This document shows positions 6,401 through 38,843 of a DNA stretch of 64,000 bases, piece after piece (within the stretch, counting starts at the first letter, position 1; every line of letters begins with the position of its first letter). The stretch is from positions 38,691 through 102,690 of IMG/VR virus record IMGVR_UViG_3300037419_001192, one strand, 5' to 3'. Position numbers and translations under genes: made by a program. Below the pieces are notes generated by a model. It ran no database searches. It saw only the letters and a program-made list of their open reading frames with translations, and was not told where the DNA came from. This DNA comes from a virus.

Positions 6401-7517
6401 TTATACCCAAGGCGAGATTGCAATCACGAATTCCGGTACGCAGGCCAATCCGATCACGTATATGTCGCTCAACAAGTGGGGCGCGGTGATCAACTCGACT
6501 TCTACCAATTCGTCTACCGGCGCACATCCGGGTATCTCGCTGTATGCAAGCTGGATTACGATCAAGGATTTCGTGATGCAGCCCGATGCCGGCACTACAC
6601 CTACCACCACATATACTTCGGCAAACTGCGATATCCGTGCATGGGACAATGGCACTCCATCGGCATCGAACGACACGACCGGCTATGTCGGCTGCCATAT
6701 CACCGGGGTCAAGTCGCTGTCCACCAGCAGCGCCCGTGCGATTGCATTCAAGTCGAATCAGGATTCGACCATCATCGAGGATTGCACTACGCATAACGTG
6801 ATTGAAATCTTCAATTCGAAAAATTCGATTGTTCGGCGCAACACGATTCTCGGCCAAGACCAGAGTGGCATTTCGCTGTTGGCGAAGGGCGGCATCCGCA
6901 GTGCGCAAATTTATGGCAATACGATCCACAATATCTTCAGCGGCGGCTGGGCGATTTGCATCGGCGGCACGACTGCGCCGGGCAACTTCTATGACAATAC
7001 CGCGCAAATCGAAGCCTACAATTGCGTCGCCTTCAGTAACGTGGTCGTCAATGAATCGTCTGGCGGCTGTGAAGCCTTGCTATTCTGCGGCGCGAAGGAT
7101 TCGGCATTCTTCAATAACACGGTGACTGGCTTCTGTACCGTGGGCTCGCGCAGCAGCCCGAACAATCTGGTGGCCTCGACCAACCCGACGCTGAAGAACA
7201 ATATCTTCAAGGGCACGGGCGGCAACTGGGAAGGAGGCTATTCCTTTGCATCGGGCTGGGCTTACAACGGTACTTCGACCATCGATTACAACGATTTCTA
7301 TAACTATGGCTCGACCCCGACGCAGACCCATGGCTTGACCAGCGATCCGCTGCTGGTGAATGCCTCGTCCGATTGGCATTTGCAATCGGGCAGCCCGTGT
7401 ATCGGTGCCGGTGCAACGCTGACCTTCACCGGCTTCTATGGCGAGTCAATTACTGTCTCGACCGATCTGGCTGGAGATACCCGCACCGCGCCATGGTCGA
7501 TGGGTGCCTACAAGTAA
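3489..7517 (+). CDS. Tail tip C-terminal part / receptor-binding protein (phage-tail, SPRY-like, NIDO-like, right-handed beta-helix domains)
   Basis: [23 protein letters not shown] (GTA tail family); [16 protein letters not shown] (SPRY-like); [15 protein letters not shown] beta-helix start; C-terminal [16 protein letters not shown]. Confidence 0.8.
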
Positions 7518-7538
7518 GCTGGCAATTGATTGCCACGG

Positions 7539-34123: not shown

Positions 34124-34662
34124 GAATTCTCGGCTTGGATGTGTCCACATTCGTCGGCATGTGCCTCTTGGTTGACCCGGATCAAACCGATAGTCAAGTT
34201 AAAAGTTTACTAATCAATTACCCCAAGCTGCGCGGCTACGAGCGGCTGCAATCAATTGCCAGAGGCGTGGCAATGGTTGTGGATGAATGGCAACCAGATG
34301 TCGTGTTCATCGAATGGTATGCGTTCGGCGGTTGCCAGATTGTGCAGATGGTAGAAGTTGGCACTTTTATACGAAAAGTGCTTTACGACCGTGGCCTCGA
34401 TTGGTACGATTGCACGCCTTCTACAGTCAAACTGTTCACAACTGGTAAAGGCAATGCCAAAAAGCCTGATATGGCGGCAGCCGTGCAACAGCGATGGGGC
34501 TTTACCCATAAGAGCGATGATGTGATTGACGCTTTCGCAATCGCCAAGCTGGGCCAGCATGTCTTAACCCTACCCGAAACCCCCAAAGGAGTGAAAAAAT
34601 GGAACGATGGAAGTCAATCGAAGGCTGCCCGTTCTACGAAGTCTCAAGCGAAGGCAATGTAA
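34120..34662 (+). CDS. ruvC: RuvC-like Holliday junction resolvase
   Basis: ILGLD, VFIE, VK..TGKGNA.K, DD.IDA. Confidence 0.85.
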   Translation: MRILGLDVSTFVGMCLLVDPDQTDSQVKSLLINYPKLRGYERLQSIARGVAMVVDEWQPDVVFIEWYAFGGCQIVQMVEVGTFIRKVLYDRGLDWYDCTPSTVKLFTTGKGNAKKPDMAAAVQQRWGFTHKSDDVIDAFAIAKLGQHVLTLPETPKGVKKWNDGSQSKAARSTKSQAKAM

Positions 34663-35120
34663 GAGTCCGCCCTCGTTTTTCAAAGAATGGGAGGAAACTG
34701 CAAGGCAGGTATATTCCTATCCGAAAAAACGCGGGCGGGTATCTAGTCTTTAGTGTTTCCGTAGGTGGGGTCGCAAAAACGTTGTACCTGCATCACGTAA
34801 TGCTGGAAGTTTTTGTCGGCCCAAGACCGGAGGGGCTACTGGTATGCCATAACAACGGCATACGTGACGATTGTAGGCTTGACAACTTACGCTATGATAC
34901 CCCGAAGGGAAATGCAGACGACACCCTTCGCCACGGAACTAGAAGCATGGGGGAGTCACACCCATCAACTAGGCTATCTGATAAGAACTGCATATCAGCA
35001 CTTAACCTTCTGAGAGAGGGCTGGAGCAAAAGAAGGGTGGCTCGGTATTTTGGTGTTGCCCATACCGCAATCGTCAACTTATCTCGGGGTAAGTCCCGAA
35101 AATATTTAACCAAGGAGTGA
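34599..35120 (+). CDS. NUMOD4-HNH homing endonuclease
   Basis: W..I.G..YEVS..G.V; VCHNNG...D.RLDNL.Y. Confidence 0.85.
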   Translation: MERWKSIEGCPFYEVSSEGNVRVRPRFSKNGRKLQGRYIPIRKNAGGYLVFSVSVGGVAKTLYLHHVMLEVFVGPRPEGLLVCHNNGIRDDCRLDNLRYDTPKGNADDTLRHGTRSMGESHPSTRLSDKNCISALNLLREGWSKRRVARYFGVAHTAIVNLSRGKSRKYLTKE

Positions 35121-35753: not shown

Positions 35754-35830
35754 AAAGTCATTGACAAACAAAATCGTTGCTGTAGAATCGAGGTCGTGAT
35801 GGATGCGAAACCACTGAAAGGAGTCAGAAA

Positions 35831-36658
35831 ATGAGTGAAAACGAACAATCCCAAGAGGTAGTCGAGGAAAAGGTTGCCAAGGCGAAAGTCAAGAAGACCC
35901 ATACCGGCGACCTGATCCACGACATCGCTGCCGAAGTCGAGCATCTGACGAAGGACAAGGCGCTGAAGCAAGCCGACTCGCTGGCCGAAGATATCGAAAC
36001 GAATTACTTCAAGCTCGGCGGCATCCTGAACAAGATTCAGGAGCAAGGCTGGTACGAAGGCTTCGGCACGTTCCAAGAATACGCCGAAGAAAAATTCGGC
36101 ATCAAGGATCGCACGATCCGCTACATGATCCGCATTTACAAGGATTTGGTCGAAAAGCAAATCCCGTGGGAAAAGGTGGCGCATCTGGGCTGGACGAAGC
36201 TGAAAGAATTGTCCGGCGTGTTCAAGGTCAACGAGGATGGCACCGATAACGTCGATGAATGGGTTGAAAAGGCTGAAAAGCTGACCGTCAAGGAACTGCA
36301 AGCGCTGCTGAAGCAAGAAGGTGGCGACGACGAAACTTCGGGCAAGCAAACCACTCAAATCACGGTACTGAAATTCAAGCTGATCAACGACCAAACCGAC
36401 ACGGTGCAATCCGCACTGGCGAAGGCGAAGGGTGAAGTCAGCACCGACCATGATGAAGTGGCGCTAGAATCGATCTGCGGCGCATACCTCGGCAATGCAA
36501 TCACGATCCAAAAGCAAGAAGCGGCCACCGATCTGGTCGAAGCGCTGAAAGCCCTGTCATGGGAAGATGCGCTGAACCTGCTCGATGCTTCCCATCCGGA
36601 ACTGAAGATCGCGGTCACGGTTGGCGACGATATCCAAGTCGATGTGAAGGCGGCGTGA
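35831..36658 (+). CDS. DUF3102-like HTH DNA-binding protein
   Basis: FKLGGILNKI..FGTFQEYAEEKFGIK.RT..YMI.IY; strong SD; promoter TTGACAAAC at 35761. Confidence 0.55.
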   Translation: MSENEQSQEVVEEKVAKAKVKKTHTGDLIHDIAAEVEHLTKDKALKQADSLAEDIETNYFKLGGILNKIQEQGWYEGFGTFQEYAEEKFGIKDRTIRYMIRIYKDLVEKQIPWEKVAHLGWTKLKELSGVFKVNEDGTDNVDEWVEKAEKLTVKELQALLKQEGGDDETSGKQTTQITVLKFKLINDQTDTVQSALAKAKGEVSTDHDEVALESICGAYLGNAITIQKQEAATDLVEALKALSWEDALNLLDASHPELKIAVTVGDDIQVDVKAA

Positions 36659-36735
36659 AGCCAAGCTGGCAATCAATTGCCAGCCGCCCTTCGCAAGAGG
36701 GGCAACAAGGATGGTGAATGCGCAGGCTGATGCGC

Positions 36736-36811
36736 GGGGTGGGTTTCATGGCCGGGCGAGGCTGCAACCCTCGCGGTGCCCGGATTGGGTTCGACTCCCA
36801 GCACCCTTGCA
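36736..36811 (+). tRNA. tRNA-like element, anticodon GCA (Cys), non-canonical
   Basis: CGAGG-CTGCAAC-CCTCG anticodon arm, TGGG-TTCGACT-CCCA T-arm, 6-bp acceptor; atypical D arm; no CCA. Confidence 0.45.
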
Positions 36812-37960
36812 ATGCCGGGGATCAGCGCCGGCCACCATCCTTGTTGGGAATGCCTATCAATAGGCGCAAGAAGTGTAGCCTGAAAGTGCGTATATCCCGG
36901 TAACCAGTACCCGCAACGGCTACGGTACAAAGCTGGTTACATGCTTCGCTGGAGATAAGCGCCAGCCCCAACATTGCTGGATTCATGCGATATGGAATCA
37001 TGCCATTGCCGAGAGCAAGCTGCGTTCAGGTATGAGGGGGTTGCATGGAGCAAGAGCTAGGGTTGCGACTTAGCATCCAGCCATGTTGGTAGTGCGGAGT
37101 GCTGATCCGCAACGGGCGAGAACCGTGTGTTTTGGGAGTCTCGGCCTCTTATGACCGCGCAAGCGCGAGGGGGATGGATGGGCGCATAGGCTGGGTTCAG
37201 CACCAGCACCAACAAGCGTGATGGGTTAGACGGTTGGAACGCGGTCGTGGGTCGCTCCCCTTCTGCTGTGACCGAGACAGGCTCCCCTGACGAGCTACCC
37301 ATCACCCTTGTTGGTTCAAGATATCTGGGGCCACCGGATTCGAGCGGTTCGAGCAACGCACCGTTCAAGTTCTCCCAAGGCTAAGGTGTTTCCGGTGAAT
37401 GCGATGCTGGCGTTGCGCACCAGCCCCCAGATATGTTGGATCAACATCGAACCGTTAGCTCAGAAAGCGGTAAGCCGAAGGCCAAGGCAACCCCGCACGG
37501 CAGAGCCCCGAATATCTAATTCGGTTGTCGCTGGTAATAGACCTTCCAGCACGGTTCGATGTTGGGCCATACGCGGGAGTAATCCCAAACTAGCTTGGAT
37601 GTGCGCCTGAAGGGCTGAAAAGGATCGTATGGAAACGCCAAAGCGGGAGTTGCGTACCCGCCCCAGCACCCAACAGTTAGCGAACTGTAATAAGGCAGAG
37701 CCGGCATCACCCTGTCGGCCTGATAAGTCCTATATCCAGTGGGATGCTGCCCGAATAGATTGGATGAAACATGGCAACTCCGGGAGTCTTCGGGCTCCTC
37801 GTTACCCCCGCTTCTACCCAGTGGGAGATTGCCAAAATAGACTGGGATAAGCAGTTCGCTAACTGGTGGGGTCATCCGGATGTACTCGGGACTGAGGCTG
37901 TCCGGCTGGAGCAAGAGGCGGAATTGCGACCCGCCCTCCATCATTGTGTGGCAATGTCGG

Positions 37961-37998
37961 GACTGCGGGTGGCGGGGATGCTTCCCGCAGTCTTTTTT
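37961..37998 (+). terminator. Rho-independent terminator
   Basis: GACTGCGGG..CCCGCAGTC followed by T6. Confidence 0.75.
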
Positions 37999-38014
37999 GT
38001 TGTATGCTGCGGCA

Positions 38015-38554
38015 ATGCTGACCGAATACGACCCCACCCTACCGCCCACCGATCCGCGCAGCCTGCATGAACAATGGCGCGATGTCCCCGGCTACGAAGG
38101 CAAATACCAAGTCTCCAATCACGGCCAAGTGAAATCCGTGGGCCGGCATATCCCGGTACGCGGCGGCAAGACCCGCTGGCAACCGCAGCAAATGCGCAAC
38201 CGCCAAATGAATACCGGCACCGATTTCTGGTGCGTCCTGCTATACAACAAAGGCAAGGCGCGGCACCACTACATTGCCAATCTGGTGCTGGAAGCGTTCG
38301 GTCATCCGCGCCCGCCAGCAGCCCGCGTCACTTACCTCGATGGCGATTGCGATAACCTGCATTATTCGAATCTGGCATGGTCGGATGAGCGCGTGGTGCG
38401 GCACAAAACGCCGGATGCAATAGAAGCGCAAGTGATGACGTTCCTGAACAGTGGCATATCGCTGCGCAAGACTGCCAAGCTATTTGGTATTGCCTACAAC
38501 ACGGCATGGCGCATCAAGCATCGGCATATTGCTGCCCAACAATCCGGCAGCTAG
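38015..38554 (+). CDS. NUMOD4-HNH-like protein with C-terminal HTH (catalytic His replaced)
   Basis: EQWRDVPGYEGKYQVSNHG.VKS; VTYLDGD..N...SNL.W. Confidence 0.75.
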   Translation: MLTEYDPTLPPTDPRSLHEQWRDVPGYEGKYQVSNHGQVKSVGRHIPVRGGKTRWQPQQMRNRQMNTGTDFWCVLLYNKGKARHHYIANLVLEAFGHPRPPAARVTYLDGDCDNLHYSNLAWSDERVVRHKTPDAIEAQVMTFLNSGISLRKTAKLFGIAYNTAWRIKHRHIAAQQSGS

Positions 38555-38843
38555 AATCTGGCAATCAATTGCCAAATGGAGTTGCCATGTCTCACTTCGC
38601 TGACTGGATTGCCGCGCAACCAACCCCACCGACGCCGGAAGACGCTTTCAATTACGCGTTGATGCTGGCGGCAAGCGTTTGCCTAGAGAAATTCGAGGGC
38701 CATGGCGCGGCCAGCAAAAAGCGCCTCGCCGCCGTGCAATGTGCCGATGAAATTCTGTTGTATCAGGAGCGTAAAACAGATTGACAAACAACTTGGTTGT
38801 GCTAAGATAAGTACAACCCAAGTCGCTAAACAATGGAGTGGAA

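What the first reader, a model, noticed from the sequence alone, without database searches (positions are those of the whole stretch)
36686..37998. Candidate giant (~1.3 kb) multi-domain structured ncRNA
Seen: the only long ORF-free stretch in a gene-dense genome, built of consecutive domains each closed by a long helix: 36703-36716/36833-36846 (14/14), 36900-36907/36933-36940, 36968-36982/37075-37089 (14/15), 37208-37226/37297-37315 (18/19), 37321-37330/37425-37434 (10/10), 37442-37455/37551-37564 (14/14), 37567-37573/37626-37632 and 37669-37687/37852-37870 (18/19). It also has internal hairpins, a GCAA tetraloop (36693), cUUCGg (37788), a possible pseudoknot (37138-37144 with 37272-37278) and a 3' terminator. 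It begins right after a dyad site and the DUF3102-like gene. Known: phages carry large ornate RNAs (GOLLD, ROOL), often tRNA-linked and typically under 1 kb. Inference: an unusually large member or a new class, possibly an RNA scaffold, decoy or ribozyme.
Basis: partly seen in the sequence, partly recalled or inferred. Interest (0 to 1): 0.88.

Follow-up and report, generated by a model that had tools for sequence, protein, structure and literature searches.

The report
Array of stem-closed phage RNA cassettes
The 1.3-kb gene-free stretch of this uncultured 103-kb phage looks like a chain of at least six small folded RNA modules rather than one giant RNA; each module is clamped by its own long stem that starts and ends with the same six letters, a design that recurs in unrelated phages, matches no catalogued RNA family and has no known job.

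Summary
Window 36659-38014 is non-coding, and it holds 5-6 of the 12 long inverted repeats of the whole 102.7-kb phage. There is a sigma-70-like promoter upstream and one strong terminator at the 3' end.

The "giant RNA" reading is not supported. Only six modules (105-200 nt) fold better than shuffles; the three stretches between them do not. Relatives of this phage group carry 0-5 such modules at the same place, mixed with tRNAs, tRNA-like T-arms and in one case a permuted tmRNA. This is therefore a small-RNA slot holding a variable array.

Each closing stem is 15-19 bp. The outer box CCAACA/UGUUGG is invariant and the inner sequence is free but paired (94% paired against 66% in shuffles). 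Three modules start on a "5-bp hairpin-N-CCA" end of the RNA before them.

The same scaffold, with cargo of 4 to 107 nt, occurs in at least six unrelated IMG/VR phage contigs and in an Undibacterium chromosome. Rfam has no match.

My best reading (about 55%) is a co-transcribed array whose stems are processing and stability scaffolds, probably cut by host RNase III, that release small RNAs including tRNA mimics. Expression and cleavage are untested. This scan has noted similar stem-closed cassettes in other phages, with other stems.

The parts
35761..35788 (+). Sigma-70-like promoter (TTGACA-16-TAGAAT), the likely start of the transcript that runs through the upstream gene into the array
   Evidence: 11 of 12 consensus positions. 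There is no other plus-strand promoter-like site before 38781.
35831..36658 (+). Upstream gene (275 aa, phrog_17202), conserved in the phage group. It marks the small-RNA slot and probably binds DNA rather than acting as an RNA partner.
36660..36703 (+). Lead-in: a dyad built on the genome-wide palindrome (36660-36679), then a GCAA-loop hairpin (36686-36703) that abuts the first closing stem. No U-tract, so not an intrinsic terminator.
36703..36846 (+). Module M1. It has a 14-bp closing stem. Its cargo is two hairpins plus a tRNA-like element with no D-arm (36737-36807): T-arm UUGGG-UUCGACU-CCCAG, a 6-bp anticodon stem with loop CUGCAAC, a 5-bp acceptor, U after the acceptor and no CCA.
   Evidence: (z -2.42)
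36850..36970 (+). Inter-module RNA X1. It ends in the hairpin GCUGG-AGAUAAGCG-CCAGC (36948-36966), then C, then CCA; this CCA is the first three bases of the stem of M2.
   Evidence: the hairpin resembles a rydB hairpin, 18.9 bits, E 0.48; z -0.43
36968..37089 (+). Module M2, with a 15-bp closing stem (1 mismatch) and 92 nt of cargo
   Evidence: z -3.08; minus strand only -0.93
37093..37211 (+). Inter-module RNA X2. It ends in the hairpin GCUGG-GUUCAGCA-CCAGC (37190-37207), then A, then CCA.
   Evidence: (z +0.88)
37208..37315 (+). Module M3, with a 19-bp closing stem (1 mismatch) and 70 nt of cargo
   Evidence: z -4.02
37317..37438 (+). Module M4, with a 14-bp closing stem (its box reads CAAGA/UGUUG). 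Its last internal hairpin has a GUUGCG loop and is paralogous to that of M2.
   Evidence: D1, I1; z -3.56
37441..37565 (+). Module M5, with a 14-bp closing stem that extends to 19 bp including a U-G pair, and 95 nt of three-hairpin cargo
   Evidence: z -5.19
37566..37671 (+). It ends ...CCAGC-AC-CCA at the start of M7.
   Evidence: z +0.52
37669..37870 (+). Module M7, with a 19-bp closing stem (1 mismatch; 3' box UGGUGG) and 162 nt of cargo. The cargo holds a cUUCGg hairpin and two paralogous hairpins (37733-63 and 37815-45) that differ by compensatory changes.
   Evidence: D2, I3; z -4.55
37874..37998 (+). Tail: three hairpins, then the intrinsic terminator (stem 37957-37992 with a U6 tail to 37998)
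   Evidence: z -2.22
38015..38554 (+). NUMOD4/HNH-type homing endonuclease gene just after the terminator. It is not part of the RNA array. The listed 224-aa ORF from 37880 would run through the terminator, so the real start is probably the ATG at 38015.

Best explanation
The interval 36659-38014 is the phage's small-RNA operon. It is a plus-strand array of six stem-closed cassettes (M1-M5, M7; 105-200 nt each), interleaved with three RNAs of about 110 nt that end in a 5-bp hairpin, one nucleotide and CCA.

Inferred steps:
- The array is transcribed from the promoter at 35761 together with the upstream gene and stops at the terminator at 37998.
- Each 15-19 bp closing stem (constant CCAACA/UGUUGG box, free inner sequence) makes its cargo fold on its own and serves as a double-stranded processing and stability element.
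- The stems are most likely cut by the host's RNase III.
- The cut releases the cargo RNAs. It also leaves the RNA in front with a short 3' tail, which exonucleases trim back to CCA as in tRNA maturation.

The cargo RNAs are the working parts. At least one is a tRNA mimic with a Cys (GCA) anticodon loop. Their job is unknown; decoys or substitutes in the contest over host tRNA-targeting defences is a guess.

Shown: the anatomy, the non-coding nature, the enrichment, the conservation of the slot and of the scaffold, and pairing with free sequence. Inferred: transcription, cleavage by RNase III, trimming to CCA, and any function of the cargo.
For: 1. Real and non-random structure.
2. Non-coding.
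3. Plus-strand RNA unit. All genes are on the plus strand. There is a promoter at 35761 and a single plus-strand terminator at 37972-98. The plus strand folds at -564.6 against -514.7 kcal/mol for the minus strand. GNRA and UUCG loops and a canonical T-arm are readable only on the plus strand.
4. Conserved slot with variable content. In 126 non-redundant relatives, long stem-closed elements pile up in the 500 nt after the homologous gene (14-18 per 103 loci, against 0-4 in other bins). T-arm motifs number 31 downstream on the plus strand, against 2 upstream and 1+1 on the minus strand. tRNAs lie downstream in 13 relative loci. In phages Summit and DLP5 the modules sit between tRNA genes. Relative L031 carries a permuted tmRNA there.
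5. Scaffold with swappable cargo. The tag-N-CCAACA...UGUUGG design occurs in unrelated phage contigs (no shared proteins): arrays of 3 in L178 and L375, single copies in L185, L374, L381 and L384. It also occurs in Undibacterium (L315 with 2 modules, and L362 as an empty hairpin).
6. Pairing is selected, sequence is not. On 17 modules, 94.2% of cells pair against 66.5% in shuffles and 35-48% when the partner is slid; 10 of 16 pairs change on both sides. The orthologues L010 and L017 keep 42 of 45 cargo bases while the stem is rewritten with compensatory changes. L095 and L134 differ by two A-U to G-U changes on the gene strand. Non-Watson-Crick cells split 10 G-U against 4 A-C on the gene strand.
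7. The phage has no RNase III, CCA-adding enzyme, RtcB or reverse transcriptase of its own, so processing would fall to host enzymes.
Against: - No expression data.
- RNase III is named by analogy only. The host is unknown, the stems are 15-19 bp rather than about 22, and I could not match them to the E. coli proximal and distal box rules (PMC1540722).
- The stems are almost purely Watson-Crick (227 WC, 10 G-U). Energy z-scores do not separate the strands for four of the five modules tested. A DNA-level hairpin is therefore not excluded by the stems alone.
- Modules were picked for complementarity, so the covariation numbers are partly circular.
- The cargo of this phage's own modules has no detectable homologue anywhere I could search, so no cargo structure is supported by covariation.
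- The constant 6-bp box is not explained by a generic RNase III site and may point to another, specific factor.
Confidence: 0.55

Rival explanations
1. It is one large multi-domain RNA (about 1.3 kb) that works as a single folded particle, like GOLLD or ROOL. In this reading the closing stems are domain helices, not processing sites.
For: The helices are nearly contiguous: every closing stem is abutted 5' by another helix. There is a single promoter and terminator pair. The whole-region fold is very stable on the plus strand.
Against: No Rfam hit to GOLLD, ROOL or any large RNA. A third of the length folds no better than shuffles. There is no significant long-range helix between modules. The number of modules varies from 0 to 6 among relatives, and the order is not conserved. 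The same stem carries 4-107 nt of cargo in unrelated phages. The proposed pseudoknot is at chance level.
Confidence: 0.1
2. These are DNA-level elements: hairpin or cruciform-forming sites such as integron attC-like recombination sites, or miniature inverted-repeat insertions that piled up at a hotspot. The AAC...GTT core would be recognised by a recombinase or transposase.
For: The outer boxes contain AAC...GTT, as attC R'' and R' do, with structure conserved and sequence free. The stems are almost purely Watson-Crick. Strand z-scores are similar. Two homing endonuclease genes flank the region. The scaffold is spread across unrelated phages.
Against: The phage has no tyrosine recombinase or integrase. 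There are no cassette ORFs between the sites. The stems lack the unpaired central spacer and extrahelical bases of attC. The tag hairpin lies on one side only, always on the gene strand. Cargo holds canonical T-arms in the gene orientation. G-U outnumbers A-C on the gene strand. No element has a second copy, as a mobile repeat family would.
Confidence: 0.08
3. It is a Y-RNA-like array. Each module would be a small RNA whose terminal stem, with its constant box, docks one protein (a host Ro60/Rsr-like ring or another RNA-binding protein), and whose variable loop tethers a second partner, as in bacterial Y RNAs.
For: Y RNAs are 80-130 nt and are closed by a long stem of the 5' and 3' ends that holds a conserved protein site. 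They can mimic tRNA, come in several copies, and in Deinococcus are made as a polycistronic precursor with a tRNA (PMC4201824). The modules here share the size, the terminal stem with an invariant box, T-arm cargo and tandem arrangement.
Against: No hit to Rfam Y RNA or YrlA models even at E up to 10. The phage has no TROVE/Ro60 gene. The box CCAACA/UGUUGG does not resemble the Ro-binding helix as I recall it (own knowledge, not tested). Most cargo has no tRNA-like domain.
Confidence: 0.1
4. It is the decayed remains of a tRNA or small-RNA cluster with no present function. The stems would persist only because hairpins are slow to erode or serve as terminator-like punctuation.
For: The only tRNA-like element is defective: 21.5 bits against the Rfam tRNA clan, no D-arm, no CCA. 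The cargo has no homologues. Relatives often have an empty slot.
Against: Six stems of 14-19 bp with at most one mismatch each would not survive drift. The box is invariant across unrelated phages. Orthologues show compensatory changes. The paralogous hairpins inside M7, and those of M2 and M4, keep pairing through changes on both sides. A 1.3-kb useless insert in a packed 103-kb genome is unlikely.
Confidence: 0.1

Closest known systems
RNase III processing stems: phage T7 early sites R0.3-R1.3, rRNA leader-trailer stalks, and 23S rRNA intervening sequences (PMC1540722; the rest from own knowledge)
   Same: Long double-stranded stems formed by sequences that flank a functional RNA inside a polycistronic transcript. 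Sequence is largely free and pairing is required. Cutting the stem frees the enclosed or neighbouring RNA.
   Different: Here the stems are 15-19 bp with an invariant 6-bp outer box. They are repeated six times in a row around unrelated cargo, and several start on a hairpin-N-CCA end. Cleavage is not shown, and the E. coli box rules could not be matched.
Phage T4 tRNA cluster with the stable species 1 and 2 RNAs (rnaC, rnaD), and the T5 stable RNAs (own knowledge)
   Same: Phage operons that mix tRNAs with small stable RNAs of unknown function, made as one precursor and cut by host enzymes.
   Different: Those RNAs are not wrapped in a shared closing stem. This phage has no bona fide tRNA, only a tRNA mimic.
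Bacterial Y RNAs (YrlA, Yrn1, Yrn2) with Ro60/Rsr (Chen et al. 2014, PMC4201824)
   Same: Size, a terminal stem of the 5' and 3' ends with a conserved site, tRNA-like domains, several copies, and co-transcription with tRNA.
   Different: No Rfam match, no Ro60 gene in the phage, a different conserved box, and most cargo is not tRNA-like.
GOLLD and ROOL large ornate RNAs of phages and prophages (Rfam)
   Same: Phage-borne, structured, often near tRNAs, function unknown.
   Different: Those are single conserved architectures of 400-800 nt. This is a variable chain of independent units, and neither model hits it.
Integron attC sites
   Same: Imperfect palindromes of about 60-140 bp with conserved outer boxes containing AAC...GTT. 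Structure is conserved and sequence is free.
   Different: No integrase, no cassettes, no unpaired spacer or extrahelical bases, a one-sided tag, and tRNA-like cargo oriented with transcription.
Rfam RF03046 Pseudomonadales-1 RNA (candidate sRNA, function unknown)
   Same: Its hairpin at model positions 83-140 begins GCCAAC and ends GUUGGUGAGUAGC. One Undibacterium module (L315:813-935) matches these flanks base for base.
   Different: The match scores only 14.7 bits (E 1.3, gathering score 68). It covers one hairpin of the 164-nt model, the module has 74 nt where the model has a 9-nt loop, and the window itself gives no hit.

Membership tests
GOLLD (RF01998) / ROOL (RF03087) large phage RNAs | Match to the family covariance model | tested here: not met
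   cmscan of the whole window at gathering score gave 0 hits. cmscan of 36400-38300 at E up to 10 gave only three weak, unrelated hits.
GOLLD / ROOL | One conserved multi-domain architecture shared by homologues | tested here: not met
   Module number and content vary from 0 to 6 among about 126 relatives, and there is no sequence similarity between them.
tRNA (M1 cargo, 36737-36807) | Score above the Rfam tRNA clan gathering threshold | tested here: not met
   The best clan hit is tRNA-Sec at 21.5 bits against a threshold of 47.
tRNA (M1 cargo) | T-arm with a UUCRANY loop; 7-nt anticodon loop with U33 and a purine at position 37 | tested here: met
   UUGGG-UUCGACU-CCCAG, and loop CUGCAAC on a 6-bp stem.
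tRNA (M1 cargo) | 7-bp acceptor stem, D-arm, and a 3' CCA (encoded or addable) | tested here: not met
   The ARAGORN acceptor has three mismatches and the best alternative is 5 bp. There is no D-stem and no CCA follows.
Bacterial Y RNA / YrlA | Match to an Rfam Y RNA or YrlA model | tested here: not met
   No hit at E up to 10.
Bacterial Y RNA / YrlA | Ro60/Rsr (TROVE) gene nearby | tested here: not met
   PF05731 is absent from the complete 102.7-kb phage, and the control genomes responded. The host genome is unknown.
Bacterial Y RNA / YrlA | RNA of 80-130 nt closed by a long stem of its 5' and 3' ends that holds a conserved protein site | tested here: inconclusive
   The stem and the invariant box are present. 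Whether a protein binds the box is unknown.
RNase III processing stem | Continuous dsRNA of roughly 1.5-2 helical turns flanking an RNA inside a longer transcript | tested here: met
   Stems are 15-19 bp with 0-1 mismatch.
RNase III processing stem | Staggered cleavage by RNase III in vivo or in vitro | not testable with these tools
   No read data could be obtained.
Integron attC | Integron integrase, or cassette ORFs between the sites | tested here: not met
   PF00589 is absent. Modules abut one another and there is no coding potential between them.
Integron attC | R and L boxes separated by an unpaired spacer, with extrahelical bases | tested here: not met
   The stems are continuous, and at most a single mismatch occurs at varying positions.
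Retron ncRNA | Adjacent reverse transcriptase | tested here: not met
   PF00078 is absent from the phage.
Permuted tmRNA (RF04321) | Match to the model | tested here: not met
   No hit in the window, although relative L031 has one at 73 bits. The ARAGORN tmRNAp calls appear only at a relaxed threshold.

The most novel reading that the evidence does not exclude
The modules belong to an undescribed, portable RNA scaffold: a short tag hairpin, one nucleotide, then CCA running into a CCAACA...UGUUGG stem. Phages of unrelated lineages, and at least one betaproteobacterial chromosome, would use this scaffold to load, express and exchange small RNAs, including anticodon-bearing tRNA mimics. The invariant box would be read by a dedicated processing or binding factor rather than by generic RNase III. 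This phage, with six copies, would be the richest example found here.
Probability: 0.3. Interest if true: 0.75.

Novelty: new variant of a known kind. Interest (0 to 1): 0.6.

Why it matters
Phage tRNA regions are usually annotated for tRNAs only, and the rest is left blank. This locus suggests the blank can be a dense operon of small RNAs built on a reusable stem scaffold that also turns up in unrelated phages and a bacterium.

If the cassettes are expressed and processed, three things follow:
- They would be a simple natural way to package many small RNAs in one transcript, which is of interest for RNA engineering.
- They would be a pool of uncharacterised phage RNAs, some shaped like tRNAs, that are plausible players in the contest with host tRNA-targeting defences.
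- The invariant six-base-pair box gives a concrete handle for finding the factor that reads it.

The finding also corrects the more exciting reading: this does not look like a new giant ribozyme-like RNA.

Tried and rejected
Homology of the region
- blastn against 50,697 phage records: no match.
- blastn and short-word blastn against about 150 related loci: nothing beyond the genome-wide palindrome and 12-13-mers at chance level. Two stem-sequence matches in L051 and L038 lie in coding DNA.

Known families
- Rfam at gathering and at E up to 10: no family.
- TROVE, RtcB, RNase III, CCA-adding enzyme, reverse transcriptase and tyrosine recombinase: all absent from the phage.
- ARAGORN at a relaxed threshold gives several contradictory tmRNAp and tRNA calls on both strands. 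I treat these as noise.

Other ideas
- Antisense targets of the cargo in the phage genome: only 12-14-mers at chance level.
- The upstream protein as RNA partner: no Pfam family, and the fold is weakly ParB/Noc-like, so it more likely binds DNA.
- The tag-loop hairpin GCYGGRGAUMAGYGCCRGC as a bacterial RNA motif: the 6 hits in 301 genomes are the reverse strand of a conserved coding motif. This is a dead lead.
- The first loose pattern scan of IMG/VR was mostly chance hits (2 real of 120). Tighter patterns worked.
- The proposed pseudoknot (37138-44 with 37272-78): a 7-bp match is expected many times in 1.3 kb.

Tools not available
- Complex prediction was not used, because no protein-binding claim is made.
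Full report
WHERE IT IS

The window is bases 38691-102690 of a complete 102,690-bp IMG/VR phage record with direct terminal repeats. All long genes run on the plus strand. The finding lies in the DNA-metabolism region, after a Cas4-like exonuclease, a RuvC-like resolvase, an HNH endonuclease, a MazG-like protein and a 275-aa protein of PHROG family 17202 (35831-36658). It is followed by a second NUMOD4/HNH homing endonuclease. The nearest cultured relatives by that 275-aa protein, at 36-49% identity among the nearest, are Stenotrophomonas phages Summit, DLP5 and DLP3, Rhizobium and Rhodobacter phages, and many Vibrio siphoviruses.

Yes.
- Helices.
- Enrichment. A scan of the whole genome finds only 12 inverted repeats of at least 13 bp (at most 1 mismatch, 40-260 nt apart). 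Five of them are in this 1.3 kb, and a sixth appears with a shorter seed. About 0.15 are expected, so P is about 6e-7.
- Non-coding. In 36640-37960 no frame scores above 0.05 on a codon-usage log-odds that gives 0.3-0.6 in the flanking genes. None of the seven chance ORFs hits Pfam or PHROGs.
- Fold stability of the modules, with dinucleotide shuffles: M1 z -2.42, M2 -3.08, M3 -4.02, M4 -3.56, M5 -5.19, M7 -4.55.
- Fold stability of the stretches between them: no better than random, at -0.43, +0.88 and +0.52.
- Smaller features. The GCAA and UUCG loops and the terminator are there. The 7-bp "pseudoknot" is at chance level.

STRAND AND TRANSCRIPTION UNIT (INFERRED)

- A near-consensus sigma-70 promoter sits at 35761-88.
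- The only plus-strand terminator between it and 39000 is at 37972-98.
- The dyad after the stop codon has no U-tract.
- The plus strand folds 50 kcal/mol better than the minus strand.
- The tetraloops and the T-arm read correctly only on the plus strand.

The likely unit is therefore promoter, gene 35831-36658, RNA array, terminator. The homing endonuclease gene probably starts at 38015, just behind the terminator.

ANATOMY

There are six modules: 36703-36846, 36968-37089, 37208-37315, 37317-37438, 37441-37565 and 37669-37870. Each is closed by a stem of 14-19 bp with at most one mismatch. All stems share the outer box 5'-(C)CAACA...UGUUG(G)-3', and their inner 8-13 bp all differ.

M1 encloses a tRNA-like element. 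It has a canonical T-arm, a 6-bp anticodon stem with loop CUGCAAC, a 5-bp acceptor followed by U, no D-arm and no CCA. ARAGORN calls it tRNA-Cys with a poor acceptor. Rfam gives only 21.5 bits. It is the only tRNA-like gene of the phage.

M2, M3 and M7 begin exactly where the preceding stretch ends in a short hairpin, one or two bases and CCA. In M2 and M3 the hairpin is GCUGG-loop-CCAGC. The CCA is the first part of the box.

Some internal hairpins are paralogous and differ by compensatory changes. Examples are the GUUGCG-loop hairpins of M2 and M4, and the two 31-nt repeats inside M7. The array therefore grew partly by local duplication.

RELATIVES: A SLOT, NOT A MOLECULE

I fetched about 150 loci around homologues of the upstream gene from IMG/VR and JGI metagenomes. 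None shares sequence with the region. The place, however, is conserved as a home for small RNA genes.
- Long stem-closed elements are concentrated in the first 500 nt after the gene (14-18 per 103 loci, against 0-4 in any other 500-nt bin).
- T-arm motifs occur 31 times downstream on the gene strand, against 2 upstream and 1+1 on the other strand.
- ARAGORN finds tRNAs in 14 of the 152 loci scanned, one of which is this phage itself, always downstream of the gene.
- In Summit and DLP5 the modules sit between and beside five tRNA genes.
- L031 holds a permuted tmRNA at 73 bits and about five modules.
- L115 has three modules with their own shared flanks, which pair through G-U only on the gene strand.

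Module number thus ranges from 0 to 6 and content is not conserved. That argues for an array of separate units and against one giant RNA.

PAIRING IS SELECTED

- L010 and L017 carry the same cargo (42 of 45 bases identical), yet the closing stem differs at many positions with compensatory changes.
- L095 and L134 differ by two A-U to G-U changes on the gene strand.
- On an alignment of 17 modules in register, 94.2% of cells pair against 66.5% in shuffles (0 of 500) and 35-48% when the partner is slid.
- In that alignment the outer six pairs are invariant or nearly so, and ten inner or flanking pairs change on both sides.

Because the modules were chosen for complementarity, these figures describe the family more than they test it. 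The orthologue pairs are the independent evidence. Among non-Watson-Crick cells, G-U outnumbers A-C by 10 to 4 on the gene strand, a weak hint of RNA-level selection.

THE SCAFFOLD ELSEWHERE

Pattern scans for tag-N-CCAACA...UGUUGG found true, fully paired modules in several places.
- IMG/VR contigs L178 and L274 (the same element): an array of three.
- L375: an array of three.
- L185, L374, L381, and L380 and L384 (the same element): single copies.
- The chromosome of Undibacterium sp. TJN19: two modules at L315 and an empty 18-bp hairpin at L362.

L178 and L185 share no detectable protein similarity with this phage. L185 lies between exonuclease and helicase genes, and L178 lies at the end of an operon facing an endolysin gene. 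Cargo ranges from a 4-nt loop to 107 nt. In L375 and L315b the cargo ends in a canonical T-arm directly before the 3' arm, so there the closing stem takes the place of a long acceptor stem. In every locus where flanking genes were mapped, the tag lies on the 5' side with respect to them. One Undibacterium module matches a hairpin of Rfam RF03046 (Pseudomonadales-1) including its flanks, but at only 14.7 bits.

WHAT IT MOST LIKELY IS

I read it as a co-transcribed array of stem-closed small-RNA cassettes. The stems insulate the folds and act as double-stranded processing and stability elements. The obvious enzyme is host RNase III, as for T7 early RNAs, rRNA stalks and 23S intervening sequences. 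The phage encodes no RNase III, CCA-adding enzyme, RtcB, Ro60, reverse transcriptase or integrase of its own. A cut in a stem that starts on CCA would leave the upstream RNA with a short tail that exonucleases trim to CCA, as in tRNA maturation (own knowledge).

These steps are inferred. I could not match the stems to the E. coli proximal and distal box rules (PMC1540722). The invariant box may instead be read by a specific factor. The function of the cargo is unknown; tRNA mimicry in M1 and in two foreign modules suggests decoys or substitutes in conflicts over host tRNAs, but that is a guess. I put about 55% on the array-and-processing reading. I put about 10% each on a single large RNA, a Y-RNA-like protein-docking array (PMC4201824) and functionless decay, and about 8% on a DNA-level element.

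NOVELTY

No Rfam family and no paper I could find describes this scaffold. Earlier notes of this scan describe stem-closed cassettes in the tRNA operons of other, mostly freshwater phages, with different constant stems, also read as RNase III-type sites. I treated these as leads. This case adds a different box, a phage group without true tRNAs at the site, and members in unrelated phages and a bacterium. I class it as a new variant of a known kind (processing-stem-flanked RNAs in phage RNA operons), of moderate to high interest, and not as a giant ornate RNA.

LIMITS

I therefore have neither near-identical genomes nor expression data. The host is unknown.

Noticed in passing
whole window, e.g. 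7522-7533, 36669-36680, 38561-38572: The 12-mer palindrome GCAATYRATTGC occurs about 45 times in 64 kb, inside genes and between them (96 strand-hits against 5.6 expected, with none of 100 shuffles reaching that number). The same palindrome recurs in distant relatives of the phage group. It looks like a genome-wide protein-binding or modification site.
   Followed up: partly
35831-36658: The gene before the array has no Pfam family (so it is not detectably DUF3102). Its AlphaFold model (pLDDT 78.5) weakly resembles the ParB/Noc/Spo0J HTH DNA-binding domains. It is a candidate binder of the dispersed palindrome, one copy of which sits 10 nt after its stop codon.
   Followed up: partly
34599-35120 and 38015-38554: Two NUMOD4/HNH-type homing endonuclease genes bracket the region. 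The second starts right after the array's terminator, and its listed 224-aa ORF (from 37880) overruns the terminator.
   Followed up: partly
L031:2844-3134: A related metagenomic phage contig carries a permuted (two-piece) tmRNA gene in the same slot (Rfam RF04321 at 73.2 bits; alpha_tmRNA at 50.6 bits).
   Followed up: no
L006:5679-5784, 6702-6804, 6942-7032 (Stenotrophomonas phage Summit) and L113 (DLP5): Cultured Delepquintavirus phages have unannotated stem-closed modules of 90-115 nt with 17-23 bp stems, beside and between their five tRNA genes. An extra T-arm motif lies after the last module. These phages are experimental handles for this kind of element.
   Followed up: partly
L315:452-935 and L362 (Undibacterium sp. 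TJN19): A bacterial chromosome carries two loaded modules and one empty hairpin with the same tag and box, among small phage-like genes. One module matches the flanks of a hairpin of Rfam RF03046 Pseudomonadales-1 (14.7 bits). This may hint at the host range of the scaffold.
   Followed up: partly
36948-36965: The tag hairpin of M2 (GCUGGAGAUAAGCGCCAG) is almost identical to a hairpin of the E. coli sRNA RydB model (18.9 bits, E 0.48). A variant, GCCGG-GGAUCAGCG-CCGGC, sits inside M1, and GCCGG-AGAUCAGUG-CCGGC sits in the unrelated contig L374. The meaning is unknown.
   Followed up: partly
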